From a virus (taxonomy: Duplodnaviria > Caudoviricetes), in IMG/VR virus record IMGVR_UViG_2841440409_000001, positions 903 to 64,902 of that record: DNA of 64,000 bases, one strand, 5' to 3'. The notes beneath the pieces are model-generated. The model did not search any database. It was not told where the DNA came from and saw nothing but the letters and a program-made list of their open reading frames with translations. Positions 11,680-41,706 of this stretch are shown here, piece after piece (positions within the stretch are counted from its first letter, which is position 1; each line of letters starts with the position of its first letter). A program made the translations under genes and the position numbers.

Positions 11680-11740
11680 ACCGCACGTCATGCGCGATGG
11701 TTGATGGCCGCAATCTAGCCGATTGGCGTGAGTGTGCCAA
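11680..11740 (-). promoter_or_regulatory. Late-block promoter plus leader hairpin, copy 1
   Basis: TTGGCA-17-TAGATT followed by ATC-GCGC-ATGAC-GTGC-GGT. Confidence 0.65.
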
Positions 11741-11751
11741 TCGGCAATCTT

Positions 11752-14700
11752 TTACTCATCCTCGCTATACAGCAACGGCGCGGCCTCATCCTGTAGCCGC
11801 CCTGCGAGCTTCGGATTAAGGTAGACGCCGGTGGCCTTTCGCTCGCGCATTTGCTGCCGCGATTTCATCGATCGACGGATATCTCGGGCGCGCACTGGAT
11901 AATCAGGGTTCGCCTCGTTGAACTTGTCTATCCGCTCAGCGATGGCGGCCGTATCCCGGCCCTCACGCTGTGCTTGATCGAAGTCGGCAAGGATATTGCT
12001 CCGCTGATCGAGGATACGCTGCTCCTTGTTCTTCATTGCGCGGTTCTGGTCGTAGCGTTCCGCCAACTCGGCCGGGGTGAAGCCCAGCGCCTGCTTGATC
12101 GCGTCGGCGGCACCCATGTCCTCAATGATCGGATCGCCCTTCAACGTCTGCGCGCCCTCGCTCATATAGCGATAGGACCGCATGATATCCTTCGCGAACT
12201 TTGGCATGATCGTCTCGATGCCACGATAGACGTGACCGTCGGCAATCATCGACGCACCGGTCCAGGCATTGCGAAGAATACCCACGCCAGCGCCGAGCAC
12301 CTGCATGGCCCAATAGTCGAATTCCGTGGCACCCTCCAACTGCCGGTCCGGCGAGCGGAACCACAGGTCGGGCATGCCCACGCGCTCAGAGATGTCGATG
12401 CCAAGAACGTCGCCGGGCACGCCATTGAGGGCCATGCCGCCAGCCCGCCGTCCAAGCGCCGCGATCAGCAGCTTGGCAAAGTCGTCCTCGGCGTCGTCTC
12501 CGAAGAACATGGATGCGAGCATCATAGCGATGCCGTACATCCAAGTGCCCCTGATGCCTGCGGTCAGCATCATCATGCCTGTCACCCCCGCCAGCTGCGT
12601 GCGCGCCTCGCGCCGCTCCTGGGCGGTGGCGCCTTTTACGGCCTGATGCGTGTCGCGAAACAGTCGCCAGAGCATGTTGACCTGGAAATTGCGGAAAGTG
12701 AGCAGAACTTTGGCGGTGTCCGACTGCATGATGCGAGGACGGCTCGTGTTCTGATAATCGAAATGGATCTTCCAGGTCAGTTCGGAAGCCCGGCCAATCG
12801 CCATGTTGTGCGGCTCACCCTTGCGCCGGGCCATGCGATAGGCCGCGAGGAACGTCACTTCGCGGTTCATACGCTCGGTGTGATGGAACGCCCAGCTGAT
12901 GGCACCCATCACTTTCGTCCGGATCGGACTGTATTCGACGCCCGTTTCGCCAACGCCCGCCAGATCGTGAGATTGCGTGCGCTCGATCAGGCCAGTCTCA
13001 TAGGCCTGCTCCATCGCATCGCGCTCCTGGGCGCTGAGCGCGCCCGCCCGGGCCGCGTGGCCCTTGCCAGCCGTGAAGTCGCGCAATGCCTTGCCCAGCT
13101 CGAACGCGGCGCGCCCTGCGCCGCGCCCGGCGCTGCCTTCATAGGCGGCAAGGATCGGCACACCCATCACTGCGGTCTGGGCGGTGTTCACCAGCGCGGC
13201 GGCCGGACTGACGGATAGGTGATATACGAACGCGGCCGATGTCAGCGTCTGCGCCAGCGGGCCGCCGGTAGGGTTCATGATGAACTGGTTCCGGCGCGTC
13301 ATTTCGTTGACGATGAGACCGGCGCGCACAGGGTCGGGCATCGTCTTCGCCTGATCACGCGCGAGAGCGATCGTCTCGTCCAGATCGAGCGCATATTTAA
13401 GGCGCGCGAGCTGGTGGGAGCCGTGGAACATGTGATGGCCAAAGACGCGGATCGCGTCCGACGAAAAGCCCGCGCGCCCCTTTCTGTGGATGCGGCTCGT
13501 GCGGATCGACATGTCTGGCATCGTTTCGAGCCAGCGCTGCCAAACTGCGTCGCGCACGGAGTCGCTGACGTCGGCGCCTTCAAGGATGGATTCGATGTCG
13601 GTGACGAAGCGCGCATCGACCTGCGCCTTGAGCGCGCCGCCGTCTTCGAGAACGCCGATCACCGCGATGTGCCCGGCATCGCGCATTTGCTTGGCGAATG
13701 CCTGCTGCTCGCCGGGCCTTTCGAAGCGCGAGAAGCTGATGACCTGGTCCGTTTTCTGGTCACGCACCGTCACGAAGAAGTTGCCGAACCGGGACAGAGG
13801 GAAATAGGGGCCGGACAGATTGTTGGTTTCGAAGAAGTTCCTCAGGCGCGTCATACGCGCGCCCTTGGCCCACCCTTGAAGCTGACGCTGCTTGGCCCAT
13901 TCTCGCTCGGCCTTCGCCACCGCAAGCTCGCGGGCGTCGGCCGCCATGTCGGTGTCGGCAATCCGGATCAGTTCTGCGTCATACGCGCGCTTCGCCTGCC
14001 GGAACTTGATGTCGAGCGCCTTGGAGAGATTGTCGAGCAACACTTGCTCGAAAGCGTCCGATAGCGCGCGATACGTGTCGCGCACGTCGACATAGATGTT
14101 CCGGGCATCCGCCGGCAGGGCCGTGAAAGCCGCCGAGAGACGCGCGTGGGCAGACATGCGAGCCTGGTCACGCTGCCACTTTTCAGCCGCGGCATCATAC
14201 GCGTCGGTCCCAGGCTTCCCACGCAATGTCTGTCGATCGACCTTCGTGAGAATCGACGTGAATTTCTTCGCAGGATCGACGCCCGAGAGTGTGGCGTCGT
14301 GCATGATGTTCATGAGCTTCTGGTTTTCCGCTCGGTTGAGCACGCGGAATTTGAGCCATGGCTGGGCGACAGCATCTGACCGGGCATGCCACTGATCGCG
14401 CAGCGCATCCATGGCCTGCTTGAGGTCCAGATATTCACGCGCGGCCGGAATGCGCGAAGCCATCTCCGTCAGCAGCGGGCGGAGCGGAATCACGCCCAAC
14501 ACACTCGCTTTGCCATCCATTGCCTTAGTGACGAGGTTCGCGATCATGCCAGGAGTGACGACATCGACCTGTCGTTCGGAAGGGACGACGCGGCTGAAAG
14601 CGGTGTTCGAGTTCGGTGCCGTTATCCCTGATCGCAGGGCGGCAGCAGCGAGCGCCTGCAGCTGGGCGGGGGTGACACTGCCCAGCTGCACGCCAAATCG

Positions 14701-17700
14701 ACGCAGAAGCCACGCCTTGAGCGCGCCGACGAGGCGGTCCGCCGCCTCCCGCACGCCAGCCGGCGCCTGCGCGCGCTCCTCGACGGCGTAGGCTGCGAAC
14801 TCCTCAACTTCCATGCCCAGTTGGGGATGGGCTGCGTCGACCCTTTCAAGGGCTCGTCGCCAAAAAGCCGTATTGCCGCGATCGGCCGTCGATTCGCGGA
14901 GCTCGGCCGAACGATAGAGCGCGTTGATCCGTGCAAGGGCAGCTTCCCAGTTCGCGTTGCCGATCAGCGGACGTACGCCGGCATGGAACATTTCGTGGAG
15001 CAGGACCGGCATCGCCGTGTCACTCGTGAGCTTGTCCGCCACGAGATGAATGCGGCCGTCCCGGCTGGTCATGCCCTGGACCACGTCGTGTCCGCCATCA
15101 GGGTTGGCGGTGAAAATGTTGTGGAGTATAGTGCGAATTGCTCCGGCACCCGCTCCAGAACGCATCCCAGCTTCGGCTGCATCTGCACTGGTCTTGAAGG
15201 CGGGCTGTCGGAGCACCTCTCTCAGAGCCACCTCGTGCACGTACATCCGCTTGGCGTTGATGTCCGATCGTACCATGACGATCGCGACCATGTCCTGATT
15301 GCCCATGCGGATCGGCGCTGCGACGAAATGCGCCATGCCGCCGTCACGCGAGCCGGCAAGCGGTTCGCTATGAACGATCCGGCCATGTCGAAGCACGTCG
15401 GGCACGGCCGCGAAGGCGGACGCCTTATTTCGGCTCAGGCCGTGCGACACGGAATTTTTCACGGCTTTAGCATCCAGCGACACCGCACCGATGCCGGGCG
15501 TTTGGACGATCTGATGATCGTTGTCAGCATACCAGCGCGCCACCTTGGCGGTAAGCGGCTGGCCGTCCGGTGCGAACTCGTCGCCCTTGAGCGTCACGAT
15601 CGGCTCGCCCTCCAGATAGGCGCGAATATTGGCGCGCGAAGCGCTTGCAGGGAGGGTGTCGCCATTTGCGTGAAGCACGATCTTCCCAGCGTCGATAAGC
15701 GCCGTGATCGATGGTCCCAGACGTCCTTCGTCCAAGTGCCGGCGCAAGCCGTCAACCGATGTGAACCCGCCCCCTGCCGGTGCCGCGATACTGTGTGCCG
15801 CTGGGCTGTCGGCTGGCTGCGCGGGATCTGCCTTGACCTCCTTTTCGACCAGCTGCGGCGCTTCAAACGGCCGCTCCTCGTAAATAGCGATCCCCTGGTC
15901 ATCTCGCGCTTCGGCATAGGGTATCGTGACCGTGCCTCGCTCGTCGTTTGCAAGAACGAACCAGCCGTCCGGGGCCCAGCGATGCCCAGCGACGGTGAAC
16001 TCGGCGCCGTTCCAGTGGATGGAGGTGTCTACAGGCGCGCCGGTGCGCAGCCAGGCCGGGGGCGGCACCGGGTTTGCCTGGATGTCGGCCTCCAGATCGG
16101 TCAACGCCTTGCCATAGCGTTCGAGTTCAGCCGAAAGGTGGAACGGCTCCTGTGTCAGAGCCTCCAGCCGCGTGATCGTCGCCCGCTGCTCCTCCATCTG
16201 GGCGCGTCGGCGCGCGGTGTCGGGCGCGAGGCGCCGAAGCGACTGCTCCATGCCTTGCACGCTCGTGCCGGTGAATACTTTGCCATCGATGACGACGCGC
16301 AACTCGGGGCTCTTGGAAAGACCGGGCCAGCCGACGAGCAGTTCGTAACGTCCGAAGCTGCCGATCGCCACCGGCGCGTCGCCCATCCGCAGATTGTGCG
16401 CCGCCCAGGCGTTTATGGCCTCGTCAGCCTCCTTGCGCTTGTCGTAGGGCTTGCCGTCGATGGTGATGGCGAAGCCCTTGCCGGCATTGGCCGCGACGAG
16501 GCTCTCCGTGGCCTCGACGGTGCCACGCTTGTCGAGTTCAGCCAGATCCGTCTCGGTGTCGCTGACGAAGCCTCGCAACATGCGAGCCTGCCCGATGGCA
16601 TTGGCGATCCCCTGGGTATGCAGGCGCTCTCGGCGCTGGACGCCGTCGAGCTGCTTGCGAAGCTTTTCCCGGATCAGGATGCGCGGATCGCCCGCCGCCT
16701 CGGCAAAGGACTGGAGGATATCGCTCTGCTCGTCGGCCGCCGCTTCACCTTCAATGGTGCGCGCGCTGTCATCGGCCTTGAGGAAGGCGGTGATGAAACG
16801 CTGCTTGATAGCGAGCACCTGCCAACGCCGGCCGTCGAGACGATCGGTGAGATACCGATATTCCAGCACGGTGTTCCACTGGTTGCCCTGACGCTGCCCG
16901 CGCCCGTTGCGTTGCTCCAGGTCGCCCGGCATCCATGGAGCGTCCATGTGGTGCATGGCGCGGAGGTTGCGCTGCATGTTGACGCCCACGCCCAGGGTCG
17001 CGGTAGAGCCGATGACGACGCGCACTTTGCCGCTGTTCATCGCGACGGCGATCTCTTTGCGCTTGTCCTTTGAGGTCGATCCGTCGACCACGGCTATCTG
17101 CGCGCGCGGGATGCCCTGGGCGGCAAGCCGCTCGACAATGTCGCGGATCGTCGAGAAGTAGGGAATGCTCTTTGTGCGCTTCGCTCCGCTATCGTCTCGG
17201 CCGAGGCTGCGGGTGACCCGATTGGAGAACCCCTGCTCGGCAAAAATGACCTGTGTCGCAAGCGGGTGGCTGTCATAGATTTCCTTGACGTTGGCGACGA
17301 CGCGCGACGCCTTGCTGCCCGGATCGTCTATCGCCTTGCCTTCCTGGCCGGCGAGCGACTCCCCGTCATAAAGACGAACGTCGAAGCTCGCTTTGGTCGC
17401 AAGGCCTTCCGTGATGATTGGGGACTCCGGCGAACCGGCGGCCATGGCTTCCTTTTTCTGCTTGCCGGTCATCGAGCGCCAGGCGCGCGCATAGCCGCGC
17501 AGCTCGTCGAATATCACGCGCTGTTGTGGCGTGAGGTCGGAGGTGACGTTGATGACCCGCTTGTAGGGGCGATCCTTCGCGCCCTCCGTCCGGCCGTTGA
17601 GCAGCTCGGCGCGCTCGGCCTCCGTCAGCTCGTCGGCCATCGTTTTGCCGGACGCTGTCCTGCGCGGCTGCATCTCGGGCATATCTGCGGCGAACACGGT

Positions 17701-20700
17701 GTCCATATACTGGCCGATCATTCGGCGCAGTTCGGGCACGTTGATGAACCCGGCGAGGCGCGTGACAGCTTCGTATTCGGCCGCCGCATTCTGCTCGACG
17801 TCCATGACCTCGCGTGCGAACGAGCCAAACCAGCCGTCCCACTGATCGATGCCGGCCGCCTGCATTTCTTCCTGCATGATGTAGCGCATCATGTGGAAGA
17901 CTTCCGTCAGCGTGTTCGTGATCGGCGTGCCGGTGAAAAGATGGACGTTGCCGCCCGCATTCTGCGCCCGGATGTACCGGGTCATGAACGACAAGGAGAT
18001 GGACCGGTCCGACGTCGAGGTGTTGAGCCCCTTCATCTTCATCCTGGTGCTGATTGGCGGCTTCTTGAATTCGTGCGCTTCATCGACCAGGACCATGTCC
18101 ACGCCTAGATCCTCGAAGGCGATCGCGCCCTCGCGCGATGCGCGGTGCGACTGCTTGCGGATGGTCTCGATGATGCGCTGGCGCATCTTCACCAGTTCCT
18201 TGGCCGTCGGCGAGCGCAGTTTCTTCAGGGCCTCGGGATCGTCGAGCATCTCCTCCTTGAGGTCGGCGCCGTCATCGGCGGCGGCGGCATAAGCCTCCTC
18301 TTCGAGCGCCGCGATTTCCTCGCGCGCCATCTCCATCAAGGTTTCCTCCTTGAAGGCGAAGCGATCGATCAGGCTGTGCGGCACGACGACAGCGTCCCAG
18401 TCGTCGTTCGCAATCTGGCGCATTTTGACGTCGATCGTCGCCGGGGAGAGATTGTCGATGTAGAGGATCTTCGCGGCAGGGTACATCTGCTGGATCTCGG
18501 CGCCGACCGTCTTGCTGTTCGCGTTGTGGGCGAGGATCAGCGGCTTGCGCGCAATGCCATATCGACGGCTTTCGACCGCAATGCCGCCCATGGTGAACGT
18601 CTTGCCGGTGCCCACTTCATGCGCATTGAGCGAGCGGCGCGATACGAGCGCGCGCCAGATTGCATCCTGTTGATGCTGACGCAGGTCGAACGGACCGGTC
18701 CCGAGCGAGAGCGCCATACCTTCGAACCGTAGAAACGAGCCGTCGAAGCGCGGGGTCGCATAGGCGTTGCGCACCTCATTATATTCCGCCTCGACCGCAA
18801 CGCGCCGCTCGGGATCGCTCCAGAGCCAATCGGCAAATTTCGTGCGCATCTCTGCGATCTTGCCGTTAACCTCTTCGGTCGCGGCGTGATCGACATAGGA
18901 TGTGCCGTCGCTGTCCTTGCGGCGGATTGTCACGGCCTGGTTGCTGAACGCCGCGTTGACGAGCCGCTGGAAGCCATATTCATCGGTACCGAAACCGGTG
19001 CGAGCCTCGGTCCGCGATTTGAGCCTGTCCTCCATCCGGACTGTCCAGCGCCCGCCATTGTAGCGGACCTCGACGCCCTTGCCGTCGGGCATGCCGAGCA
19101 TGTGGCCGACGAACTCACCGTAGATCTGGGGTGAAACCCACGTTGCGCCCAGCTGCGTCTCGATCTTGAAATAGGGGACGTCGGCCGGAACGACCTCGGT
19201 GAGCGCGTCCACATTGCGCTCCATGTGCGTCATGCCTTCCGCCACGGCCGCCTTGGCCTGGCGCAGCTTCTCACGGACATTGCCGGCGAGATAGATGTCG
19301 CTGGGCACGATATCGCCGCCGGGCAACTCGAACACGGCACCGCTTTCTAGCAGCTGCGCCTTGGCCTCGTCCTGCGGCACGCCGGCCCGCGCTGCGATCG
19401 CATCGAGTGACGGATTAACCGCGGCGTTGCGTTCGAGCACGAACGCTTCGCTCACATTGGGATTGTCGATCGAGGGGGCAGGGCGGGTGGTGCTGCGCGT
19501 GAGGATCGCGGCGCCTTTGCCATCTATCTCCAGCGCTGCGAGCGACGGGTAGAATGGATCGTCGATCTTGCGCATGTATGCGAGGCCGAACGATTCGTTG
19601 AGACGGCCATGCTGCCTGACGAACGCGTCGTAGCTCGACTTGAGCGCTTTGCGGGCGGCGGTGGTGTCGCCGTTGCGCTCTGCGTCGATCAGGTCGGCAT
19701 ATTTGCGGCGCATGTCGACGAGCTGCCCGAGCTGAGCTTCTCTCTGGGCGGTTTTCGCCGGATCCTTCAGGGCAAAGCGTTCGACCTCGGCAGCCGGTGC
19801 CAGATGCTCGCCGCGCACGACAAACAGACCGTCCTTCGTCTGGGTGAGTGCGCCCTCGCGGTCGGCGGTGTGGTTGGCAACATAGCTGATATGCTGCGCG
19901 CGAGCCTCATTGGTATAGGCGCTTTCCGGAACCAGTGCGACGATACGCTGCAACTGCTGAGCCATGTCGTCCGGTCGATGGACGATCATGCCCGGCCGGC
20001 CGCGCGTCGTGCCATGTCCAAAATCGAGCTGCCCGATGACGTGGCCCGGGTTCGCGACATAATATTCGTTCAGCGAGATCTCGCCGCCCGGCGTCTGGAA
20101 GGGGACACTGCCCACCCAGCCTTCGCCATCCGCCAGGCTGATGGGCTCGGCCCGCTTGCGCAGGATGATGATGTCCGTGACGACTTTCGTTCCAGCATAA
20201 TCTGCAAAAGCGCCGGATGGCAGACGGAACGCCGCCACGAGTTCAGCCTTCTTCGCCAGTTCACGCCGAATAGCCGATGCCTTCTTGTCCATCGTGCCGG
20301 ACGAAGTGATGCCCATGACGATCCCGCCCGCGCGCACCTGATCGACGGCCTTCAGGAAGAAATAGTCGTGCAGGAACGGGGACAGGCGATCATATCGCCG
20401 ATCGGCGATCACGGTGTTCTCGAACGGCCAGTTGCCGATGACGGCATCGTAGAAGCCGTCAGGCGTCTTGCTCTCCTGATAGGGCATCACGCGCACGTTG
20501 GCGTCGGGGTAAAGCAGTTGCGCCATGCCGCCGGTCAGGCTGTCGAGTTCTATGCCAGCGAGGCGTGAACGCGCCGCGATTTCAGCTGGCATCATGCCGA
20601 AGAAGTTGCCGATCCCCATGGACGGCTCAAGGACTCGTCCACCCTGGAATCCCATGCGGGCCATCATGTCCCACATGGCCATGACGGTCGGGGGATCGGT

Positions 20701-23700
20701 GTAGTGGGCATTCGTGATCGAGCGCTGAGCGCTTTCCCATTCCTCACGGCCCAGATGCTCCCGCAGCCAGCGGTCACGCTCCTGCCAGCCGTCCCGAGGC
20801 ATGGGGCGATCCCAAGTGCCCTGGAAGAGCTCCTGCCCGAAGCTGCCCCAGCCAGTATAGCCGGCAAGCGTGCGCTGTTCATCCGCCGTAGCCTGACGGC
20901 CCTCGTCGCGAACTTCCAGATAGGTTTCGATCGCCTGACGGTTTCGGTCAAAGCGCGCCACCGGGCCGCCGCCCACAATTTCGAGCGGATTTGCGATATG
21001 GAAATTACCGGGCCCTGGATGCGCAGGACTCGTCGCCGAGCTTAGCTCGTTGGCGTCGGCACTTCGTCCTCGTACTCGGCCGCTACCGCCATCTCCTGCC
21101 GGTACCGGTCCTTCAGGTTCTGCGGCGCGTCCTGTAGCGTCGTCGGCAGATCGCTGTCGTCCTGCAGCGGCACTTCCGGTTCCAGCATCAACTCCTCGCG
21201 CTCCGCTATCTCGCGAGCGTCCGTTATCGGGAAGCCTTCCTTCAGCAGCTCCTGTTGGCGATCCCACATCCGGCTCTGCGCCAGAAACGCCATCTTCGCC
21301 GTCAATCCTTGCGCCTGCAGGTTCGCCCACATCCTCGGACTGTCCTGTTCCCAGCTCGCCAGTATCCGGTCGCGCAGCACGAAGTTCTCCGTCACTCCGC
21401 TCGCCTTCAGCTGGCGATACTCCGCGTCGATCGCGGCGCTGTTCAGCAGGTTCGGGTTCTCGGACATTACGCGTCAGCTCCGGCTCACCCCGAGTGACTT
21501 CCCAGGCAATCGTATCGGCCAGATCGATTGCAGACAGGTCAGCGGGTGCCCAACGGTTTACACCAGCCGTAGCCTGCTTGTCTCCGTCTTTTCGCGACAC
21601 ACGGTACATCAGGGACACGCCGGCGGCATTGGTCGGGACCGCACCGCGCAGGGAGCTTGCCCCGACCGTGGCAAAGACGTTGGCTCCGCTCTCCACGTGG
21701 CGCAAATGGAGCGTGACGTCGCCTGAAACCGCCATCCCGCCAGCATTGCGCGCGACCGGATTCGCCGACTTTCCTTTTGTCGTGGCGTGCGGTTCGAAGC
21801 CCAGAGGGCGTAGCGCCGCCGCGACCGCTCGCATATAGGCGGTAGCATCGCCGAGAAACGCGTCCTTGAGCCCGCCTTTCAGGCCTTCGTCGGTCTGCTG
21901 GTTCGCACCGCCATCGATCGGCGTCCAGCCGTCGATATGATCGACGCCCCAGTCTTCACGTAACTTGCGTGATCCAGCCGGCGCTGCCTTCTCACGCTTG
22001 GGTTTTGCGACCTCGCTGCCGAGAGCCCGTGTCTCATCGGCGGGTAACCCGCCCTTGAGCAACCCAACATGCAGCGTACGCGATTCCGCTGGCGTCGACA
22101 TGCCGGCTGTATCGAGACCAGGATAGTTCCGCGCCCCTTCCCAGAAGGACAGCAGGTAGGGCGTGATCCGCTCGCCGAAGTCGGCACGCATCGCGGCGGC
22201 ATAATCGGCGAATTTGCGTACCCCCGCCTCGATGTAAGCGCCGGCAATCGTCATGCCGTCGACCAGCACTTCGGGGTCGATGCCCGAATTGATGCGGTTC
22301 ATCTTTTCGCGCAGACGCGCACGCGCTGCTTCGACCTTGTCGGCGGTGAAAAGCTTGTTACTGCTGAAGACGTCGTCAGTCGTTCGCGCAGGTTCGGCTG
22401 GCGGCACCGGCTCGGCGGTTGCCGCCGGCGTTGCATCTAGGGTCGCACCTTGCTCCGCCGGCGACCCTTCACCAACCGCCCGATCCGCTTCAGGTTCCGC
22501 AACGGCAACCACTTCCGGCGCGATGGACATGACGTCATCGCGCATCGCGCGTTCGATCACATAGTTCTGGAGCGTCGTGCCGCCGCCACGATCCACGTTG
22601 CGGAAATAGGCGCTGCGCTTTCCGGCGCTCTCGATCTCATAGGTCGCGCCAGCCGACAGATAATCAACGTCCTGCGACACCGTGTAGCGCTCGCCATTGC
22701 GGACGAACGGGTTCGCGTTCTTCTTGTCGGTCGGGCGACGCTCAACTGCGGGCCGGGTCACCGTCGGCGCAGAAGTCGGGGGGGGGGTCTCCGACGCCGA
22801 CGGCTCCTCAACAACGGTCGCAGTGCCTTGAGGTTCCACGACTTTTGCGGCGGCAACCTTCGTGCCCGCTGGCGCGATCGTACGCGCGGGATCTTTCACC
22901 CAGGCGCGGAAATCCTCGAACGACATCTCCGTGATGTCGCCAAGGCCAGTCCACCCCTTCTCGTAGTTGGCGAGGTAGCCGCGACGAGCAGCGCCCTTGT
23001 CGCCGAACCCGACCATCACTTTGTGTTCGTCAAAGCTCCCATCAGCATTGACCTGATCGACGATGAACACCGGGTTGGCAGGATCAGCGGCCTTGGGCCC
23101 AAGGAATACGTCGACATGATCGCCGTCGGCGCCCTCGGAGCGCTTCACATAGCCATAGGTGTGCTTGAGCGGTGGCCACTCAGGGCGGCGGCTGGTGCCG
23201 GCCGGGTTCTCGATCGTGACGTCGAGGCCGCCGATCGACACATGACCCTTGGAATAATTACCAGCGTCCTTCTGCGCCTCGGTAGGCTCGGGTAGGTCGT
23301 TGAGCGGCGACGTCGCCGCCTGCGCCTCGGCTGCCTTGATCGCGTCGGCCGGCGCGGCCTTCGCTGCGTTGATGGCATCGATCGCCTCTTCAACGCGTTT
23401 CTTTTCGGCAAGCAGCGGCTTAGTCCAGCCGGCGTTGGTGCGAGCCTGCGAGGCGAGATAGCGCAGGCGCGCGCGCAGTTCGTCTTCCGACGCTTCGTTG
23501 GCGGGCGCCGCCGGGCTCTGCGCCGGCTTGGGAGGTTCGGCGATGATTTCTCCGGTTTCAGGGTCGACATGCTCGCTCGCGTCGTTCCGCTGATCCTGCG
23601 GCGAACCTGTAAGCTTTTCTTTCAGGTTGCTCGGAGACTGCGGCTGCGGCGCCGACACGATCGCCTCCTGCGGCTCATCGGACGGGGCGGGGGCCTCAGT

Positions 23701-25716: not shown

Positions 25717-25763
25717 TCATGCGCGGCGCACGCATCCTAGCGCGTTCGCCGGGGCGCTGTCAC
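25710..25763 (-). promoter_or_regulatory. Late-block promoter plus leader hairpin, copy 2
   Basis: GTGACA-18-TAGGAT followed by GCC-GCGC-ATGA-GTGT-GGT. Confidence 0.65.
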
Positions 25764-28090: not shown

Positions 28091-28532
28091 GGAGCATGTC
28101 CTTTGCGATGAAGGGGCACTCCTCACGGAGCATACCCATGACGATCATGTCGCCGCCGTCGTTCGCGCCGCGGCGAAGCGCACCCTCGATCCTGAAACCG
28201 AAATGCTGGTTGAGCCGAAGTGCGCGCTTGTTCGATGCGGGGACGAGCCCGGTCATGCGCTGCAGGCCACCGACGATGAACGGATAGGTGAAGCCAGCGG
28301 CGATGAACCTGCGCGACAGCCATCCGGGGCGCTGGTCGCTGACAAGATGGACGCTGCAATCCGTGCCGGTCCATCGCTCGTAGATGGCGACGGCGCGGAT
28401 ATCGTCGAGCGTGCCCCAGCCGATCGCGCGCGCGTCGGAGAAGAAATTGAGCCCGAACTGCTTCGTCGCCCAGGCGATGAGGCGGTCAGGTTCGTCGAGA
28501 ATGATGCCGGGTGCAGACATGCGCGGATCCAT
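28080..28532 (-). CDS. GNAT-family acetyltransferase
   Basis: VPASNKRALRLNQHFGFRIEG...GMLREEC. Confidence 0.8.
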   Translation of the reverse strand: MDPRMSAPGIILDEPDRLIAWATKQFGLNFFSDARAIGWGTLDDIRAVAIYERWTGTDCSVHLVSDQRPGWLSRRFIAAGFTYPFIVGGLQRMTGLVPASNKRALRLNQHFGFRIEGALRRGANDGGDMIVMGMLREECPFIAKDMLHEQ

Positions 28533-28541
28533 GAACAGGGA

Positions 28542-28570
28542 GCCGCACTCATGCGCGTCGCAGCACTATA
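28542..28570 (-). promoter_or_regulatory. Late-block -10 element plus leader hairpin, copy 3
   Basis: GC-TATAGT, 8 nt, GCGCATGAGTGC. Confidence 0.65.
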
Positions 28571-34246: not shown

Positions 34247-36967
34247 TTAAGGTGTGGGCGTGTCGGTCTGGTCGCCGACGGCAATGCCATCGTCGTCAGA
34301 TGTCGGCCGAGTGGATTTGACGCGGATGACCTGATCTTCCGACATCCAGAGCCAGCCAATGGTCGCGCCGGCCGCAATGGGCCGGATCGCGATCGGGTTC
34401 TGCCAGCCCGAGTTGGTGACGAGATGCCCGTCGTTCGAAACGATGATGGGCGTCCCGACGGCGACACCGTCGTCATACATGTTGATCTGGAAGTCACCGG
34501 CCGCGACCTGATGCAGCTGCACCTCGAGACCACCGGCATCCATGAAGTTGATCTTGCGTGCGGTACCGTCGGGCGATTTCAGATTGACGTTGAGATCGCC
34601 GTCGGTGCTCCGGAAGGTGATATCGCCTTCCGTCTCGAACCCGGCCGTCGGACTGAAGGGAATGTTCGGCTCGAGGCGGCGGTCCGCCTGGTCGATGAGG
34701 CCCATGTCGATGGCGTTGCCGCCGACATTCTCCCACTTGGCCGTGAGCATGCCCGTCGTCGATCCGGAAACGCGGGCGGGGAAATCGACGCTGGTATTGA
34801 TGTAAACCGCGTGCGTCATCTGACGCGCGGCGCCTGCACGGCTTTCCACCGCCTGGACATCGATGGAGAGCGGTCCACGCTGCCCGAAGACGGTGACAGC
34901 CGAGGAATTCTCGGGATGGTCCGCTGTGATCGTTCCCACATTCTCGATGTCCGCGACGACGCGCCCGCCGCACGCCTCCAGACGAATGCCGGCGTCGCGT
35001 CCGCCCGTGATCTGCGCCGACACATTGGCCTTGCGGAAGCCGCTGAACAGCATAGTTGGCGCGGCCATGTCGTGGTTGACGATCGCGTTGGCGACCGACA
35101 CCTGATCGAATCCGGTGATATCAAGGCCGCCCTCTGCCGGCGTGACGCGGATCGCTTCAGCGGCGCGCGGCCACTGCTTGCTGATATCCTCATAGGTGGA
35201 TTCAAGGATTGGGCTGTCGATGACGATACGATCGGTGCCGGTGCAGACGATGTTGGACTGCCACAGCTTGGGGTGAATGACCGAGACGCGGCCGCGCTGG
35301 CGCTGGAACTTGTCATCGGCCGGACGCGTGTACCAGTTGCCCGACAGCACGAAGCCGCGGCGGAAGTGCACGCGCGCGGCTAGCGCGGCCTCGCTGTCCG
35401 TGTCGTAGCCTGGAGGCGCATTGCCCGACCAGTTCGTCGTCGCGATCACGGTCGACAGGCCATCACGGCCGTCGAAGATGTCGTTGATCGAGACGATGTC
35501 GAAGAATTCCTCGTCTTCGCCATGCACCTCGATGTTTGGCCCGAGCGCCGTCCAGCCGCCGTCGCCGTGATAGAAATTCCGCTCCGAGTAGAAGCGGTTC
35601 ATCGCGATCTGCGCGCCGCCCTGCATATTATTGTAGATGTCGCAGCCGATCATGGACCAGTCGTTGGACGTCTTGCCGAAGTCGAGCGCTCCCCAGCCGA
35701 ACACGGCATGGCCCCACCAGCCGTGAATAGCGCATTCATAGACCTGAAGGCCGTGGACGGCGCCGCCCGAGATCGCGTGGCCCTGGATCCACATATTGCC
35801 GTCGGACGTGCCGGCGACATAAGCGGAATAGGTCTGGTTCGCCTCATTTCCGTCGATGTCGAGCCACCTAAACCCGACCTTCGATACCTTGTCGTCGGGA
35901 AGCTCTTCCCAGAAGGGCACGTAGAACAGGCCGCCCGGATTATGGTCGCCAGGCGCAGCGAGGAACTTCGCCTTTGACGTGCGCGAATTGCCGCGCAGCT
36001 CGACGCCCGACACGAGCGGGATGCGGCCACGACGGAAGGCAAAGGGCGCGTCGGCTAGCCCCTTCTCCTTGAGGATCAGATAGCCATAGGTCTCGTAATC
36101 GCCGCCGCAGACATAGGTGCGATCATCGCCGCCGCAGTTGATCACGCCGACGCCCCAGGACGCGGCATCCTCCATGACGTTCTTGATCGCGTCGGTCGTG
36201 GCGACCATATCCGCCGGATCAGTCGATCCGTTGCGGCTGGCCTCCTCCCAGAGGTTGATGCCGTTGTTGCGCAGATAGGCCCGCGTCGTGAACACGGCCA
36301 CCTTGACGCCAACGCCGCCGATCTTCTGCGCCGCGAAGAATTCGCCGTCTGGCGTGCAGACATAGAATCCTTCGCCCTCGTCGACGTCGGCCGCCCCGGC
36401 CGCGAGGCTTTCGTACCAGCCGCCGGCCGGGCCGCCGGTCGCCGCCAGGCGCTGGAACAGCGCGTTGGGATCATCGGCATCGATGAGACCGGCGTCGAAC
36501 ATCTGCGTAGTGGCGGAAAGGCCGTCGTCGCCCGCATCGCCTTTTTGATCGGCGAGCCACTGCTCGGCGGTGCCGGTATAGCCTTGCAGCTTGGCGAGCT
36601 CATATGCGGACAGGCCGTCCGGACCGTTAGCGACGGTGACCGAGGTGACGACGGCGTCGTCCTGGTCGATGACGCGAATGACCGCATTGAGTAGCGACGT
36701 GCCCAGGATCGCATCGGGCGCGGGGAAGAGACGGATGCGGAAGGTGCGCACCGACGTGTCGCCAGGCGCGCGGCCATACACCAGCACCTGCACCGTCTTT
36801 TCCGTTTCACCCGGGAGAAAGGTCTCGTCGCCGGCTGCCTCGGCATAGTCCCGGCCCGGTACCGCGGTGACCGCTTCCGTTGCCCACTGGACGGTGACCG
36901 CTTCCTCCGGGCTCTGCGAGAGCCGGATCAGGAAGGTAGCGTAAGAGGAGCCTTCAAGGATGGGCAT
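34247..36967 (-). CDS. Tailspike with N-terminal Calx-beta domain and probable pectin-lyase-like beta-helix
   Basis: TA..GRDY...FLPGETEKTV Calx-beta pattern; DATDAI-like entry and G/N-rich beta repeats. Confidence 0.72.
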   Translation of the reverse strand: MPILEGSSYATFLIRLSQSPEEAVTVQWATEAVTAVPGRDYAEAAGDETFLPGETEKTVQVLVYGRAPGDTSVRTFRIRLFPAPDAILGTSLLNAVIRVIDQDDAVVTSVTVANGPDGLSAYELAKLQGYTGTAEQWLADQKGDAGDDGLSATTQMFDAGLIDADDPNALFQRLAATGGPAGGWYESLAAGAADVDEGEGFYVCTPDGEFFAAQKIGGVGVKVAVFTTRAYLRNNGINLWEEASRNGSTDPADMVATTDAIKNVMEDAASWGVGVINCGGDDRTYVCGGDYETYGYLILKEKGLADAPFAFRRGRIPLVSGVELRGNSRTSKAKFLAAPGDHNPGGLFYVPFWEELPDDKVSKVGFRWLDIDGNEANQTYSAYVAGTSDGNMWIQGHAISGGAVHGLQVYECAIHGWWGHAVFGWGALDFGKTSNDWSMIGCDIYNNMQGGAQIAMNRFYSERNFYHGDGGWTALGPNIEVHGEDEEFFDIVSINDIFDGRDGLSTVIATTNWSGNAPPGYDTDSEAALAARVHFRRGFVLSGNWYTRPADDKFQRQRGRVSVIHPKLWQSNIVCTGTDRIVIDSPILESTYEDISKQWPRAAEAIRVTPAEGGLDITGFDQVSVANAIVNHDMAAPTMLFSGFRKANVSAQITGGRDAGIRLEACGGRVVADIENVGTITADHPENSSAVTVFGQRGPLSIDVQAVESRAGAARQMTHAVYINTSVDFPARVSGSTTGMLTAKWENVGGNAIDMGLIDQADRRLEPNIPFSPTAGFETEGDITFRSTDGDLNVNLKSPDGTARKINFMDAGGLEVQLHQVAAGDFQINMYDDGVAVGTPIIVSNDGHLVTNSGWQNPIAIRPIAAGATIGWLWMSEDQVIRVKSTRPTSDDDGIAVGDQTDTPTP

Positions 36968-36987
36968 ATGTGCAGCCTTTGAGAAAG

Positions 36988-37020
36988 ACCGCACTCATGC
37001 GCGATGGACGGGGCATTATA
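36988..37020 (-). promoter_or_regulatory. Late-block -10 element plus leader hairpin, copy 4
   Basis: GC-TATAAT, 12 nt, GCGCATGAGTGC within ATC...GGT stem. Confidence 0.7.
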
Positions 37021-37667: not shown

Positions 37668-37755
37668 GGCACCGGGACCGCGATCGGAGACCTCACGGTC
37701 CGGCGCGTAGGGCAGGCGTGCATATTGGAGCGGGATCGCCGTAAACGGCGCGCTC

Positions 37756-38352
37756 TCAGAAATAGCGGGCTCGGGTTCGGACGGGGGCACGCTGCTGACC
37801 TCGCTTGCTGACGTTGAAGTTGCTGTCCTTCGCCTGGATGAAGCGCCCGCGCCGGTAGGCCGCGTTGGTAAGGTCGCTATAGGGCTGGCCGGGAATCTCG
37901 AGGATGGCGGCGAGCGCACCGTCCGCGATAATCTCGCCATACACATCGTACAGGAAGTCGGGCAGCTCGTCGGCATGCTGGGACGGCATGAGGAAGAGGG
38001 ATAGATGCAGCGCGCCGGCAGCGTGCGGGATCAATCGCACGCTGTTGAGCTCCGCCTGCGTGATCGCACGCGGCAGGCCGGCTTCGCTCGGCGATACGTC
38101 GGCATAGGCGATGCGCTCGAGCGGCATGCCGTTGAACTGCGCGGCCTCGATCTCGAACAGCATCGCGTCCTGCGGCACGCAAATGACCTCCGGAACGTCG
38201 TCGGTCGTGGTGAGCGTGTCGACGAGGCGCCAGCAACGCGTCGCCTTGCAGAAGTCGCGGGCAGCGGTCAGCACATGGCTTTCGGCCAACGGCTCGGGGC
38301 AGGCGGTGGCGTAGGGCAACACCCAGCGCAGGAAGTCGGCGAGCTGGCGCAT
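37756..38352 (-). CDS. Head-tail adaptor-type protein
   Basis: AARDFCKATRCW; TGATG coupling; position. Confidence 0.65.
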   Translation of the reverse strand: MRQLADFLRWVLPYATACPEPLAESHVLTAARDFCKATRCWRLVDTLTTTDDVPEVICVPQDAMLFEIEAAQFNGMPLERIAYADVSPSEAGLPRAITQAELNSVRLIPHAAGALHLSLFLMPSQHADELPDFLYDVYGEIIADGALAAILEIPGQPYSDLTNAAYRRGRFIQAKDSNFNVSKRGQQRAPVRTRARYF

Positions 38353-39065: not shown

Positions 39066-39069
39066 GAGG

Positions 39070-39819
39070 TCAGCCCGCCTTGTGCTCGGCGAGGGCGGCG
39101 GCGATCTTCTCGGCGCTCCAGCGCCCGTTCGGGCGATGGCCGATCAGCTCGTCATACTCTTTCGCAAGCGCTTCGCGATCGAGTTCACCCGAGGGCGGCG
39201 GCGGGGGAGGAGCCTGCTGCTCCTCATCTTCCTCGTCGCCGTCCTCTTCTTCCTCGTCGGTATCGGAGCCGGCGCCACCCGCCGCGCCGGCTCCGCCGTC
39301 ACCAGTGTCCTGCAAACCGCCGGTGTCGCTGCCGGGGGAGTCCGCCTGGTTGGGGACGATGCTGTTGGCGGGCGCCTGCGGAGAGGAGAGCTCCGTTGGC
39401 GCCCGCACGCCGGCGAGCAGGCTCGCGGGCGAAACTGGGACCTTGCGGGGGTCGGGCAGGGGGAAGCCGTCGAGATTGGCCTCGCCTGCCGCGATCTTGT
39501 CGATGAGCAGTACGAGCTCGCCCGGCTCGGCCTGCATGTCGGGGATAGCGCGCACGAAGTCGTGGAAGGCCTCGATATCCTGCGGGCCGCGGAAGATGAA
39601 ATAGGCGCCTTCGATCACGGGCAGATCGCCGGCGGTCGACAGGATGCTGCCATCGGCCAGGCGGAAGCCCTCCTTGATGGCGAGCAGGGTGGCGATATCG
39701 CGCTCGTCCTCGACCTCGGCAACATGCTTGCCCTCGGCGTTGGCGCGGAAATGATAGGTGCCGGCGAGGAGCGTGACCTTCGTCCCGAGCTGGCGCTTGA
39801 TGATGGATTCGATGAGCAT
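39070..39819 (-). CDS. Hypothetical protein with acidic linker and short C-terminal helical domain
   Basis: 249 aa with AGGAG RBS. Confidence 0.65.
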   Translation of the reverse strand: MLIESIIKRQLGTKVTLLAGTYHFRANAEGKHVAEVEDERDIATLLAIKEGFRLADGSILSTAGDLPVIEGAYFIFRGPQDIEAFHDFVRAIPDMQAEPGELVLLIDKIAAGEANLDGFPLPDPRKVPVSPASLLAGVRAPTELSSPQAPANSIVPNQADSPGSDTGGLQDTGDGGAGAAGGAGSDTDEEEEDGDEEDEEQQAPPPPPPSGELDREALAKEYDELIGHRPNGRWSAEKIAAALAEHKAG

Positions 39820-39844
39820 GGGTGGCTCCTTCCGGCGGGAAACG

Positions 39845-39878
39845 GAAAAGAGGCGGGAGGGGTGCAGCCCTCCCGCCC
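39845..39878 (-). terminator. Rho-independent terminator after capsid/decoration genes
   Basis: GGCGGGAGGG/CCCTCCCGCC stem followed by TCTTTT on the minus strand. Confidence 0.6.
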
Positions 39879-39883
39879 TCGTC

Positions 39884-40327
39884 TTACTGCGTGTAGAAGA
39901 CGATCAGGGTCAGCTTCTTCGTCGGGTCGGCTGCGACCTGAGCGCTGAACTGAAGCCCGATGCCGCGTGCCGCCTCGACGGGCGCGACATTGTAGGCAGC
40001 TGCCTTGTCCGGAGCCGCAACCGCATTGAGCGCGGTGGCAGCCGAGAACAGTTCGGTGCCAGCAACGCGGGTGTCGTCGTCGGCGCCCAGCTCGCCGGTC
40101 ATGACCCCGCCACTGGCGGTGACCGCCCCGAAATCGCCTTCGGGGATCAGCTTGTAGCCCACGATCTGGGCATATGCCGGCAGCACGCCCAGTTCGAGGA
40201 TTGCCGCTGCCGCCAGCGCTGCCGTGAAGGTGTGGCGAAACTTCACGGCATGAACGGCGCCGGCCGTCTGAGGGCGCGGCGTGGCGGCCGTGCCCTGCGC
40301 ATGACGGGAGTGGATGATGGTTGCCAT
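39884..40327 (-). CDS. Probable capsid decoration/cement protein
   Basis: Ala-rich 147 aa immediately after capsid; AAGGAG RBS. Confidence 0.6.
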   Translation of the reverse strand: MATIIHSRHAQGTAATPRPQTAGAVHAVKFRHTFTAALAAAAILELGVLPAYAQIVGYKLIPEGDFGAVTASGGVMTGELGADDDTRVAGTELFSAATALNAVAAPDKAAAYNVAPVEAARGIGLQFSAQVAADPTKKLTLIVFYTQ

Positions 40328-40339
40328 GTGCCCTGCTCC

Positions 40340-41440
40340 TTATGCGGCCGGGTTCTTGGCATAGGTGTCCAGCGCCATGACGCCGAAATCCTTGCCGTTG
40401 AACCGGGTCTTCTTGACGCCGATGATGGTGCCCGCGACGACGGTCGGCTCGTTGCCGTAGTCGTCCACTTCCTCCTTCCAGGTGAAGCGCAGGCCGCCTG
40501 CCGTGCCATAGGCGACAACGCCTGCCTGGCGGCCCATGAACAGGGCGCGCGCGGCGGGCAGGTTGGTGCCTGCACCATAGTCGCTGAACCGGATCGTCGA
40601 TTCATGGCTGTGCAGCACGGCATTGTTGATCATGCCGAGGCCACCCTTGAAGATCGGCGAGTTGCGCGCCTCGGCGGCGGCAGCAGCCTTCTGGATCTCC
40701 AGCCAGCCGGCTGCGCCCGCTTCGGTCCGCATGTTATACTCCTGGAAGGGAGACATGAGGATGACGTAGTGGCGCTCGCCGTTGAGATCGACGGGCAGCA
40801 TGTTGGCCGTCTTGGGATTGAGGGCGCGCATCATGCGTGCGCGGACGGTGGCGCGTTCGACCAGCTCGCGATTGAAGCCGTCGTCGGTGCTGATCGTTGC
40901 CTTCGAGGTGGCATCGCCGCCGAACAGGATATGCTCGGCATCCGGCGCCTGGATCAGGTTGCCGGCGTGGCCGGTCCAGTCCGTGTCTTCGATGAAGTCC
41001 TCGTTGATGCCGCGCGCGCCCGACAGATAGATGAAGTTCATCTCGTCGATATACTGCGACCAATAGTCGGACAGGCGATCCTTCGCGACGTTGCGCAGGT
41101 TGTGCGCGGTGCGCTTGCGCGTCATGCGACCGCCGGCCGAAACCGCGTGACGGGTCTGGTCGATCGCCACTTCGTCCGTATAGAACTTGAGGTTCTCTTC
41201 CTTGCCCTTGACGCGATTATCGCCCTGCGTCGGCTTGCCGCGCAGCTGGACGGAAAGGTCATAGCTGATGCGGTCGCCCGCGTCGGAATCCAGCTCGGTC
41301 TTGCGCTGGATGATGTTGTTTTCGCCTTCGCCGACGAACTTGCGCTGGAAGTAGCTCTTCTTCGCCGTGTCGATGAAGAGCTTGCCCGACCACTTCTTCT
41401 GCGCCTTGGCGTCGCCGAAGGGGATGACAGTCTGTCCCAT
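40340..41440 (-). CDS. Major capsid protein, N4-gp56 family
   Basis: GD...KKWS, GKEENLKFY, IDQTRHAV, LSGARG, KKTRFNGKDFGV. Confidence 0.88.
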   Translation of the reverse strand: MGQTVIPFGDAKAQKKWSGKLFIDTAKKSYFQRKFVGEGENNIIQRKTELDSDAGDRISYDLSVQLRGKPTQGDNRVKGKEENLKFYTDEVAIDQTRHAVSAGGRMTRKRTAHNLRNVAKDRLSDYWSQYIDEMNFIYLSGARGINEDFIEDTDWTGHAGNLIQAPDAEHILFGGDATSKATISTDDGFNRELVERATVRARMMRALNPKTANMLPVDLNGERHYVILMSPFQEYNMRTEAGAAGWLEIQKAAAAAEARNSPIFKGGLGMINNAVLHSHESTIRFSDYGAGTNLPAARALFMGRQAGVVAYGTAGGLRFTWKEEVDDYGNEPTVVAGTIIGVKKTRFNGKDFGVMALDTYAKNPAA

Positions 41441-41469
41441 TGGTGCCCTCGTGGAGTTAAATCCCGCAG

Positions 41470-41525
41470 AGCACTCATGCGCTTATGCCGACGCGGATTT
41501 TGCCCTATCCGCGTGACACTTGCAA
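41470..41525 (-). promoter_or_regulatory. Capsid promoter plus leader hairpin, copy 5
   Basis: TTGCAA-17-CAAAAT then GCGCATGAGTGC at 41471-41482. Confidence 0.65.
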
Positions 41526-41532
41526 CAGCTTC

Positions 41533-41706
41533 CTAAGATTGGGTCTGAACCGGGATGCCGGGGAGCCCCGGCATCCGCCTGATCTTCAGTCCGGGGTCCG
41601 CGCGGATCGCTATCCGTGCGAGCTGACCGGACTTCTTTTCGAGGGTGAGGACGACACCGTCCCCAATCTCGACGCTTTCGCCCACACGGACATCGAGTTT
41701 CAACAT
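41533..41706 (-). CDS. CsrA-like (carbon storage regulator fold) protein, 57 aa, not in ORF track
   Basis: MLKLDVRVGESVEIGDGVVLTLEKKSGQLARIAIRADPGLKIRR follows the CsrA pattern ML.L.RR.GESI.IGD.I...V.....QVRIGI.AP....I.R. Confidence 0.75.
   Translation of the reverse strand: MLKLDVRVGESVEIGDGVVLTLEKKSGQLARIAIRADPGLKIRRMPGLPGIPVQTQS

What the first reader, a model, noticed from the sequence alone, without database searches (positions are those of the whole stretch)
11680..41706. Phage CsrA-like protein with five cognate leader hairpins: candidate RNA-level late-gene control system
Seen: the minus-strand motif GCGC-ATGA-GTGC occurs exactly at 28545-28556, 36991-37002 and 41471-41482, as GCGCATGAGTGT at 25713-25724, and as GCGCATGACGTGC at 11683-11695. 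Each copy lies in the gap ahead of a late gene block (lysis, giant DarB-like, GNAT/ejection, tailspike, capsid), 8-16 nt downstream of a -10 hexamer (TAGATT, TAGGAT, TATAGT, TATAAT, CAAAAT). Flanks differ but keep pairing (AUC/GGU, GCC/GGU, A/U, C/G). The G-U pairs work only in the minus-strand transcript, which favours an RNA hairpin with an AUGA(C) loop over a DNA palindrome. A 57-aa CsrA-fold gene (41533-41706) sits directly above the capsid copy. Known: CsrA/RsmA binds CA-(N)GGA-UG hairpin loops in leaders, csrA is uncommon in Alphaproteobacteria, and CsrA-like genes occur near capsid genes in Bcep22-like phages. Inference: this protein has shifted specificity (UGA instead of GGA) and coordinates late expression through these hairpins. 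No Q-like antiterminator was recognised in the window.
Basis: partly seen in the sequence, partly recalled or inferred. Interest (0 to 1): 0.85.

Follow-up and report, generated by a model that had tools for sequence, protein, structure and literature searches.

The report
Phage CsrA-like gene with leader hairpins
A prophage carries its own small CsrA-type RNA-binding protein and a conserved 12-13 letter RNA motif at the start of five late-gene messages, which is probably that protein's docking site and would give these long-unexplained phage genes a testable job.

Summary
GCGCATGA(C)GTG[CT] occurs five times, always on the minus strand, in the gap ahead of the lysis, polyvalent-protein, GNAT, tailspike and capsid genes (expected 0.22). 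A covariance model ranks these five sites first in the window. The 57-aa gene at 41533-41706 has CsrA sequence and fold.

The motif belongs to a family, GCGC-ANGA-(N)-GUGC. I found it in 108 of 110 related capsid leaders. The second loop letter is U, G or A, and the G form looks like a classical CsrA site. A CsrA-like gene was present wherever I could look.

- The motif can also pair with the spacer and start codon of the first gene. That closed fold is 5-15 kcal/mol more stable than the small hairpin.
- The loop letter changes often and does not track the protein. "Shifted specificity" is therefore not shown.

Best reading (0.55): the CsrA-like protein binds these leaders and switches late-gene translation. 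The direction of the switch is unresolved. Binding, transcript starts and expression are all untested.

This scan has noted the same system on other DNA. I found no paper describing it.

The parts
41533..41706 (-). CsrA-like gene (57 aa), last gene of the terminase-portal-scaffold block
   Evidence: PF02599 30.6 bits against cut-off 27. A profile of the phage homologues hits RsmE 2jpp at E 3e-9 over residues 1-44, with Arg at position 44. The AF2 model (pLDDT 85) superposes on CsrA/RsmE chains at TM 0.74, rmsd 0.6 A over 44 residues.
41435..41502 (-). Capsid leader: -10-like CAAAAT (41497-41502), motif copy 41471-41482, 3' arm and AUG at 41440
   Evidence: (E 3.8e-4).
40340..41440 (-). Major capsid gene
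   Evidence: PF13252 Phage_capsid_3, E 7e-66.
39851..39878 (-). Terminator-like hairpin closing the short capsid transcript
   Evidence: 11-bp stem with 9 GC pairs and a T-rich tail.
36962..37020 (-). Tailspike/tail-protein leader: TATAAT (37015-37020), motif 36991-37002, AUG at 36967
   Evidence: z -2.5; best model hit, E 2.3e-6.
28515..28570 (-). GNAT/virion-protein leader: TATAGT (28565-28570), motif 28545-28556, AUG at 28532 or 28520
   Evidence: (E 6.6e-6).
25672..25763 (-). Polyvalent (DarB-like) protein leader: GTGACA-18-TAGGAT (25734-25763), motif 25713-25724, probable GTG/TTG start at 25686/25677
   Evidence: E 3.9e-3, not in training set; promoter-like.
11617..11745 (-). Lysis leader: 10-bp inverted repeat (11718-11745) overlapping TTGGCA, TAGATT (11712-11717), 13-mer motif 11683-11695, 14-codon mini-ORF from 11663 whose stop overlaps the next ATG (11617)
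   Evidence: (E 4.7e-3, not in training set).
10457..11635 (-). Lysis genes (unknown ORF, holin, endolysin)
   Evidence: phrog_1356 holin and phrog_7 endolysin.
11752..25686 (-). Giant polyvalent virion protein
   Evidence: LPD39, LPD3, InPase, SLT and Helicase_C domains. Homologous genes are annotated DarB-like in PBC5 and POI1126.
41738..47749 (-). Upstream block that would deliver the CsrA-like protein: small and large terminase, P22-like portal, scaffold-like protein

Best explanation
The five motifs lie in the 5' leaders of five late transcription units. On the RNA each leader has two mutually exclusive folds. One is a small hairpin, GCGC-AUGA(C)-GUGC, of the kind CsrA proteins dock on. 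The other is a longer, more stable stem in which the same letters pair with the spacer and start codon of the first gene. The phage's own CsrA-like protein is made from the terminase-portal-scaffold block just upstream. I propose that it binds the small hairpin and so sets how much of each late message is translated.

I lean to activation: binding frees the start codon. Repression, by bridging the 5' site and the Shine-Dalgarno GGAG, is not excluded.

Shown here:
- The motif is real, strand-specific and placed in leaders.
- It is conserved across alpha-, beta- and gamma-proteobacterial relatives.
- It co-occurs with a gene of CsrA sequence and fold.
- Both folds are possible.

Inferred: that transcripts start just upstream of the motif, that the protein binds it, and what binding does.
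For: 1. Five copies against 0.22 expected, all sense to the downstream gene. The model ranks them 1 to 5.

2. The same motif stands before the capsid, virion, polyvalent-protein and lysis genes of Sinorhizobium phage PBC5 (4 leaders) and Ochrobactrum phage POI1126 (5 leaders).

3. Of 110 related capsid loci, 108 carry the motif or a one-letter variant, 1 locus is cut off and 1 (L163) has none.

4. Among 64 distinct capsid leaders the loop is AUGA in 31, AGGA in 20, AAGA in 12 and ACGA in 1. The AGGA form is a GGA presented in a hairpin loop, the classical CsrA target (recalled knowledge).

5. 118 of 120 distinct leader sequences can form all 4 pairs of the small hairpin. The regex that found them fixed only the first 8 letters. 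RNAalifold finds this hairpin, with two double changes: A-U in L137/GP4 and U-A in L156.

6. CsrA-like gene presence:
- A local HMM found it in 65 of 111 sources.
- It lies elsewhere in 5 of 5 complete PBC5-like proviruses.
- It was found in 3 of 5 further records.
- It was seen by eye in L129, L151 and L222.

7. F116 has a more distant capsid. Its 'unknown' gene 47 is CsrA-like (E 1e-11). It has three exact GCGCAGGAGTGC copies: one at the end of that gene, and two that serve as the ribosome site 3 nt (33966) and 3 nt (39450) ahead of an ATG.

8. Phages 24B and K249 have neither the gene nor a GTGC-type motif, and only 20-23 nt lie between their scaffold and capsid genes.

9. Long-range pairing:
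- Own motif against own start region gives -14.2 kcal/mol, against -8.4 +/- 2.8 for shuffled regions.
- The leader's own arm is best or tied for best in 28 of 64, against 6.5 +/- 2.2 with permuted labels (maximum 15 in 2000).
- ACGTC occurs in 15 of 36 C-insert leaders and 0 of 58 others. ACATC occurs in 7 of 11 T-insert leaders and 2 of 83 others.

10. -10-like hexamers end 5-20 nt before the motif in 52 of 98 leaders, against 25 in shuffles.
Against: - No binding, expression or transcript-start data exist. No RNA run was listed.
- In the window itself the motif/start-region duplexes (-8.5 to -11.7) are only about 1 SD better than 25 other gene starts (-7.8 +/- 2.4, best -14.0). Whole-leader z-scores are -2.5 to +0.6.
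- On the model-fitted alignment the shuffle control of the count of structure pairs is not exceeded (75.6% paired against 75.9% shuffled). Only the register control speaks for the pairing (20-45% paired when slid).
- Independent-pair tests on the capsid tree have 3-6 usable pairs and p >= 0.25.
- The loop letter does not track the protein.
- The window's loop is UGA, which classical CsrA is not known to bind (recalled knowledge).
- The protein lacks the C-terminal helix.
- Only two CsrA-free relatives were examined, and both are distant.
- Four of the five -10-like hexamers fail the tool's promoter scan.
Confidence: 0.55

Rival explanations
1. The element works in cis only. It is a 5'-terminal stem-loop that stabilises late mRNAs, tunes their translation, or is cut by a host RNase such as RNase III to free the start codon. 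The CsrA-like protein acts on host mRNAs, or on something else.
For: The closed leader fold is the predicted ground state. The leaders fold into stems of roughly 16-22 bp with internal loops. The 3' arm covaries with the motif. The literature treats phage csrA as a host-directed 'moron' (PMC9144972 and PMC10269572, passages read).
Against: A structure-only element would not keep 12 letters nearly invariant across hosts of 41-69% GC and capsids down to 48% identity. The first letters GCG are often unpaired in the long fold yet are conserved, and A1/U12 and U2/A11 change together. In F116 two copies have no distal partner and are themselves the ribosome site. The tight linkage with the CsrA-like gene would be left unexplained.
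Confidence: 0.22
2. The motif is read as DNA. It would be an asymmetric operator or promoter-proximal element just downstream of late promoters, bound by a repressor, an activator or RNA polymerase (stoperator-like or Q-site-like).
For: It lies 8-16 nt after -10-like hexamers, which are enriched in relatives. It is asymmetric and has one orientation relative to transcription.
Against: - Its distance to the -10 varies from 8 to 20 nt.
- In F116 it lies inside a coding sequence or 3 nt before an ATG.
- The stem keeps a G-U pair, and its variants (GCGT, GCGC, GTGT) keep RNA pairing only.
- The complementary arm sits at the start codon.
- No DNA-binding candidate co-occurs with it.
- No Q-like protein was found among the 20 ORFs scanned.
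Confidence: 0.1
3. A host factor common to all these hosts (ribosome, another RNA-binding protein) reads the motif, and the phage protein is unrelated to it.
For: The AGGA-type motif resembles a Shine-Dalgarno sequence and is used as one in F116 and L151.
Against: The U- and A-type loops are not Shine-Dalgarno-like, yet keep the same stem and place. The hosts span three proteobacterial classes. Many are reported to lack chromosomal csrA (PMC7366521, passages read).
Confidence: 0.08

Closest known systems
CsrA/RsmA/RsmE translational regulators with hairpin operators in mRNA leaders (RsmE-hcnA, PDB 2jpp)
   Same: The protein has the same family and fold over residues 1-44, with Arg44 kept. The target is a short hairpin in a 5' leader. 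In 20 of 64 relatives its loop is AGGA, and in F116 it is the ribosome site itself.
   Different: - The regulator is encoded by the phage, next to its presumed targets.
- The window's loop is AUGA, not GGA.
- The stem sequence is fixed as GCGC/GUGC.
- The protein has no C-terminal helix.
- The site competes with a long-range stem that covers the start codon.
- Binding is untested.
CsrA-mediated activation by remodelling a leader (E. coli ymdA, flhDC; recalled, not read here)
   Same: The binding site lies at the extreme 5' end of a leader, and an inhibitory structure would be opened or protected.
   Different: Here the inhibitory stem is built from the binding site itself. The system is multi-copy and phage-borne. 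The direction of regulation is only inferred.
Annotated 'CsrA-like regulator' / 'carbon storage regulator' genes of Bcep22-, GP4- and DC1-like podophages
   Same: The window's gene is a homologue in the same place, between the scaffold and capsid genes.
   Different: Those papers call it a moron of unknown role (PMC9144972, PMC10269572, PMC7366521; passages read). Only a knock-down phenotype is published, small plaques in phage PTXU04 (PMC11879866, passages read). None of the passages I read mentions a cognate RNA motif.
Mycobacteriophage stoperators (recalled)
   Same: Asymmetric 12-13 bp sites, multi-copy, with one orientation relative to transcription.
   Different: Here there are only five, all in late leaders. 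They show RNA-type pairing and have a complementary arm at the start codon.

Membership tests
CsrA/RsmA protein family (PF02599) | Sequence match above Pfam's gathering score | tested here: met
   30.6 bits against 27, residues 1-44. A profile of 14 phage homologues hits RsmE/CsrA chains at E 3e-9 to 1e-3.
CsrA/RsmA protein family (PF02599) | Five-stranded beta core | tested here: met
   AF2 model with mean pLDDT 85. The top 15 Foldseek hits are all CsrA/RsmA/RsmE, at TM about 0.74 and rmsd 0.6 A over 44 residues. E is only 4e-3 because the protein is small.
CsrA/RsmA protein family (PF02599) | Arg44, needed for RNA binding (its role is recalled knowledge) | tested here: met
   The ungapped alignment to RsmE places Arg at position 44 of the window protein. 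Several relatives (PBC5, POI1126) have a hydrophobic residue there in the MAFFT alignment.
CsrA/RsmA protein family (PF02599) | C-terminal alpha-helix | tested here: not met
   Residues 45-57 are Pro-rich, have pLDDT 56-77 and show no helix in the model. The matches end at residue 44.
CsrA/RsmA protein family (PF02599) | Interlocked homodimer | not testable with these tools
CsrA-type RNA operator | GGA triplet in the recognition loop | tested here: not met
   All five window copies read AUGA. The homologous loop is AGGA in 20 of 64 distinct related capsid leaders.
CsrA-type RNA operator | Triplet presented in the loop of a short hairpin | tested here: met
   All 4 stem pairs are possible in 118 of 120 distinct leaders. 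RNAalifold predicts the hairpin. In the window, however, it is 5-15 kcal/mol less stable than the long-range fold.
CsrA-type RNA operator | Position in a 5' leader, with a second site at the Shine-Dalgarno sequence | tested here: inconclusive
   The leader position is met. GGAG-type ribosome sites lie 20-35 nt downstream, but whether they are bound cannot be told.
Csr/Rsm decoy sRNAs (CsrB, RsmZ type) | Arrays of many GGA hairpins on a non-coding RNA | tested here: not met
   There is one motif per leader, each followed by a gene. Rfam finds only a tRNA in the window.
Lambda-type Q antitermination | A Q-family gene upstream of a single late promoter | tested here: not met
   No such PHROG hit among the 20 early and packaging ORFs scanned. 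There are five separate leaders rather than one.

The most novel reading that the evidence does not exclude
Late gene expression in this phage group is gated on the RNA rather than by a Q protein or a late sigma factor. Each late message locks its own start codon with its 5' end. The phage's private CsrA-like protein is the key that opens all the locks at once. The second loop letter of the operator is left free, so that it can pair with the start codon. The result is an orthogonal protein-RNA switch that works even in hosts without a Csr system.
Probability: 0.3. Interest if true: 0.85.

Novelty: new variant of a known kind. Interest (0 to 1): 0.7.

Why it matters
CsrA-like genes have been annotated in Bcep22-, GP4- and F116-type phages for years. 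They are described as host-directed morons of unknown role, and the only functional datum I found is a small-plaque knock-down phenotype (PMC11879866, passages read). A conserved RNA motif that always travels with the gene, and sits on the phage's own capsid, tail, polyvalent-protein and lysis leaders, gives the gene a concrete and easily tested target. If the link holds, it would be a post-transcriptional late-gene switch in temperate phages. It would also be a CsrA relative that tolerates or reads non-GGA loops, and a compact orthogonal protein-RNA pair for hosts that lack CsrA.

Tried and rejected
- **14-mer scan of viral contigs.** It returned at least 119 mostly single, scattered matches. 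It was useful only because it pointed to PBC5.
- **The search for related loci with the scaffold protein.** It gave only 3 loci, so I used a capsid alignment instead.
- **RNA evidence.** No RNA holder was listed for window:36000-42000.
- **Rfam at gathering threshold.** It found only a tRNA.
- **The count of structure pairs on the model-fitted alignment A5.** The shuffle control was not exceeded. The columns are almost invariant, and 13-mer leaders are out of register in that alignment.
- **Independent pairs on the capsid tree.** There were too few pairs (3-6), and p >= 0.25.
- **A link between loop letter and the beta5 residues of the protein.** G-type leaders mostly go with a '...P-I/V-x-R' strand, and several U/A types with 'R-hydrophobic'. 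But L200 against L189/L201, and the window's own protein (which keeps Arg44), break the rule. I make no claim here.
- **Chance.** Rejected.
- **Leaderless-mRNA reading of the ATG inside the motif.** Rejected for the window. The frames from that ATG are short or are not the gene's frame. In PBC5 and L134, however, that ATG is the integrase start.
- **GP4.** It has only one leader copy, at the capsid, so multi-copy use is not universal.
- **Papers.** PMC3187461 (the Bcep22 genome paper) is not held, so I could not check whether it mentions the motif. Supplements were not opened. Five text searches found no paper describing a cognate RNA motif for phage CsrA.
Full report
**What the window is.** It is an IMG/VR provirus record of 64.9 kb with 64% GC.
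- The minus strand carries, in one direction: an HTH regulator, a methylase, a replication initiator, small and large terminase, a P22-like portal, a scaffold-like protein, a 57-aa ORF, the capsid, virion and tail genes, a GNAT, a 4.6-kaa polyvalent protein and a lysis cassette.
- An integrase (59674-60984, +) and a tRNA (60994-61067, -) mark one end.
- The closest named phages by capsid are Bcep22/GP4-type podophages. Among alphaproteobacterial phages these are Ochrobactrum phage POI1126 and Sinorhizobium phage PBC5, both at 67% identity.

- GCGCATGAN{0,1}GTGY gives five matches, all on the minus strand, against 0.22 expected. None of 100 shuffles reaches five. With one mismatch allowed, the 12-mer alone was not significant.
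- Each copy lies in an intergenic gap, sense to the next gene, 8-16 nt after a -10-like hexamer.
- Only the polyvalent-gene site passes the sigma-70 scan. A strong terminator-like hairpin (39851-39878) closes the short capsid transcript.
- I built a covariance model from 57 related leaders. Run unfiltered over both strands, it ranks the five sites first. Two of them had not been used in training.

**The protein.** The ORF at 41533-41706 passes Pfam's CsrA threshold. A profile of 14 phage homologues finds RsmE and CsrA structures over residues 1-44, ending at a conserved Arg44. The AF2 model (pLDDT 85) superposes on CsrA/RsmE chains with rmsd 0.6 A over 44 residues. The Pro-rich tail has no helix.

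**The motif is a family.**
- PBC5 and POI1126 carry it before the same classes of late genes. PBC5 has 4 leaders and POI1126 has 5. POI1126 uses the 13-mer form throughout.
- Capsid-anchored searches gave 28 genome loci and 80 viral loci.
- Of 110 capsid loci, 108 have the motif or a one-letter variant, one is cut off and one (L163) has none.
- The consensus is GCGC-A-N-G-A-(0-2 letters)-GUGC. Among 64 distinct capsid leaders N is U in 31, G in 20, A in 12 and C in 1.
- The G form occurs in a 41% GC contig, in Methylophilaceae, Caballeronia, GP4 and F116. It is a GGA in a tetraloop, the kind of site classical CsrA binds (recalled knowledge).

**Linkage with the gene.**
- A local HMM finds a CsrA-like ORF in 65 of 111 sources. 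The 46 misses are mainly PBC5-like prophages, where the capsid has been moved next to the lysis genes, and short contigs.
- All 5 complete PBC5-like proviruses I tested have the gene elsewhere in the record, and so do 3 of 5 other records.
- L129, L151 and L222 show it by eye.
- In F116 the 'unknown' gene 47 is CsrA-like. An exact GCGCAGGAGTGC lies at its 3' end, before gene 48. Two more copies stand directly before an ATG, as the ribosome site.
- The Stx phage 24B and Vibrio phage K249 have distant capsid homologues. They have neither the gene nor the motif, and their scaffold and capsid genes almost abut.
- That is only two negative cases, and both are distant.

**Two folds.** RNAfold does not give the small hairpin as the ground state. 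In most leaders the motif pairs with the spacer and AUG of the first gene, around an inner stem-loop that carries the GGAG site.

Across relatives this long-range pairing is supported in three ways:
- Duplex energy of own motif with own start region is -14.2 kcal/mol, against -8.4 +/- 2.8 for shuffled regions.
- The leader's own arm is best or tied for best in 28 of 64, against 6.5 +/- 2.2 for permuted labels.
- The extra letter covaries. ACGTC occurs in 15 of 36 C-insert leaders and 0 of 58 others. ACATC occurs in 7 of 11 T-insert leaders and 2 of 83 others. This holds even within POI1126.

The small hairpin is also kept:
- 118 of 120 distinct leaders can form all four pairs, although the search fixed only the 5' half.
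- Two lineages show double changes, A-U and U-A, at positions that the long fold leaves unpaired.

For the window, forcing the small hairpin costs 5.2-14.5 kcal/mol.

**Weak points.**
- In the window the motif/start duplexes are only about one SD better than other gene starts. Leader z-scores are modest.
- The tool's shuffle control is not exceeded on the near-invariant alignment.
- Tree-aware pair tests are underpowered.
- The loop letter changes at least 18 times on an 85-row capsid tree. Near-identical proteins accompany G- and U-type leaders. The position may be unread, or may be set by pairing with the start codon.
- Nothing is known about binding, transcript starts or expression.

**Mechanism.**
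- I commit at 0.55 to the CsrA-like protein binding the 5' hairpin of these leaders and so controlling late translation.
- I lean to activation. A stable stem over the AUG of a gene as heavily used as the capsid needs an opener, and the binding site and the lock are the same letters.
- Repression remains possible, as at the F116 ribosome-site copies, or by bridging to GGAG.
- The rivals are a cis-only stability or processing element (0.22), a DNA operator (0.10) and a host factor (0.08).

**Literature.**
- Sobrero and Valverde list 30 csrA-bearing phages and call for loss-of-function tests (PMC7366521, passages read).
- The JC1 and CSP3 papers call the gene a moron (PMC9144972 and PMC10269572, passages read).
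- CRISPRi-ART reports small plaques on knock-down in PTXU04, and states that the role had not been tested before (PMC11879866, passages read).
- The POI1126 paper contains neither the word 'promoter' nor 'motif' (PMC5492332, term search).
- Five text searches found no description of the RNA element.
- The Bcep22 paper and all supplements could not be seen.

**Earlier notes of this scan.** They describe the same kind of system in other genomes: 112 notes in at least 97 genomes. I read them after my own analysis. They agree with it, but they are not independent evidence.

Noticed in passing
L124 (PBC5) 961-972 (+); L134 253-264 (+): An exact copy of the 12-mer overlaps the integrase start codon, so the ATG of the motif is the annotated start. 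If the protein binds the motif, it could also shut off integrase translation. The two prophages are close relatives, so this counts as one event.
   Followed up: partly
F116 record 33363-33569, 33966-33977, 39450-39461, 16466-16600 (L243, L247-L249): F116 gene 47, annotated 'unknown', is CsrA-like (E 1e-11). A second, weaker CsrA-like match lies at 16466-16600 (E 1.5e-6). Three exact GCGCAGGAGTGC copies occur, and two of them act as ribosome sites.
   Followed up: partly
window 11718-11745 (-): A perfect 10-bp inverted repeat with an 8-nt spacer lies between the stop of the polyvalent gene and the lysis -10 hexamer, overlapping the TTGGCA -35-like hexamer. It could be a terminator, an attenuator or an operator.
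   Followed up: no
window 11619-11663 (-): A 14-codon mini-ORF with its own AGGA site. Its AUG lies in the 3' arm of the lysis leader, and its stop overlaps the next ATG (TGAcATG). This suggests translational coupling into the lysis cassette.
   Followed up: no
window 39851-39878 (-): A strong terminator-like hairpin lies after the capsid and the next virion gene. This implies a short, separately transcribed capsid message.
   Followed up: no
window 59674-61067: An integrase is followed directly by a tRNA gene on the opposite strand (60994-61067), and then by a thymidylate-synthase-like ORF. This is the likely attachment end of the prophage.
   Followed up: no
L151 2365, 5131, 5480 (+): In a Xenophilus prophage, GCGCAGGAGCG[CT]-type copies stand 3-4 nt before the ATG of three other genes. 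There the motif doubles as the ribosome site outside the capsid leader.
   Followed up: no
L163 (IMG/VR locus), capsid leader: This is the only one of the 110 capsid loci with a CsrA-like ORF but no recognisable motif. Its leader carries a different palindromic sequence.
   Followed up: no
window 1219-1253 (+): The sixth covariance-model hit (E 0.043) lies inside a plus-strand ORF outside the late region. It is probably chance.
   Followed up: no
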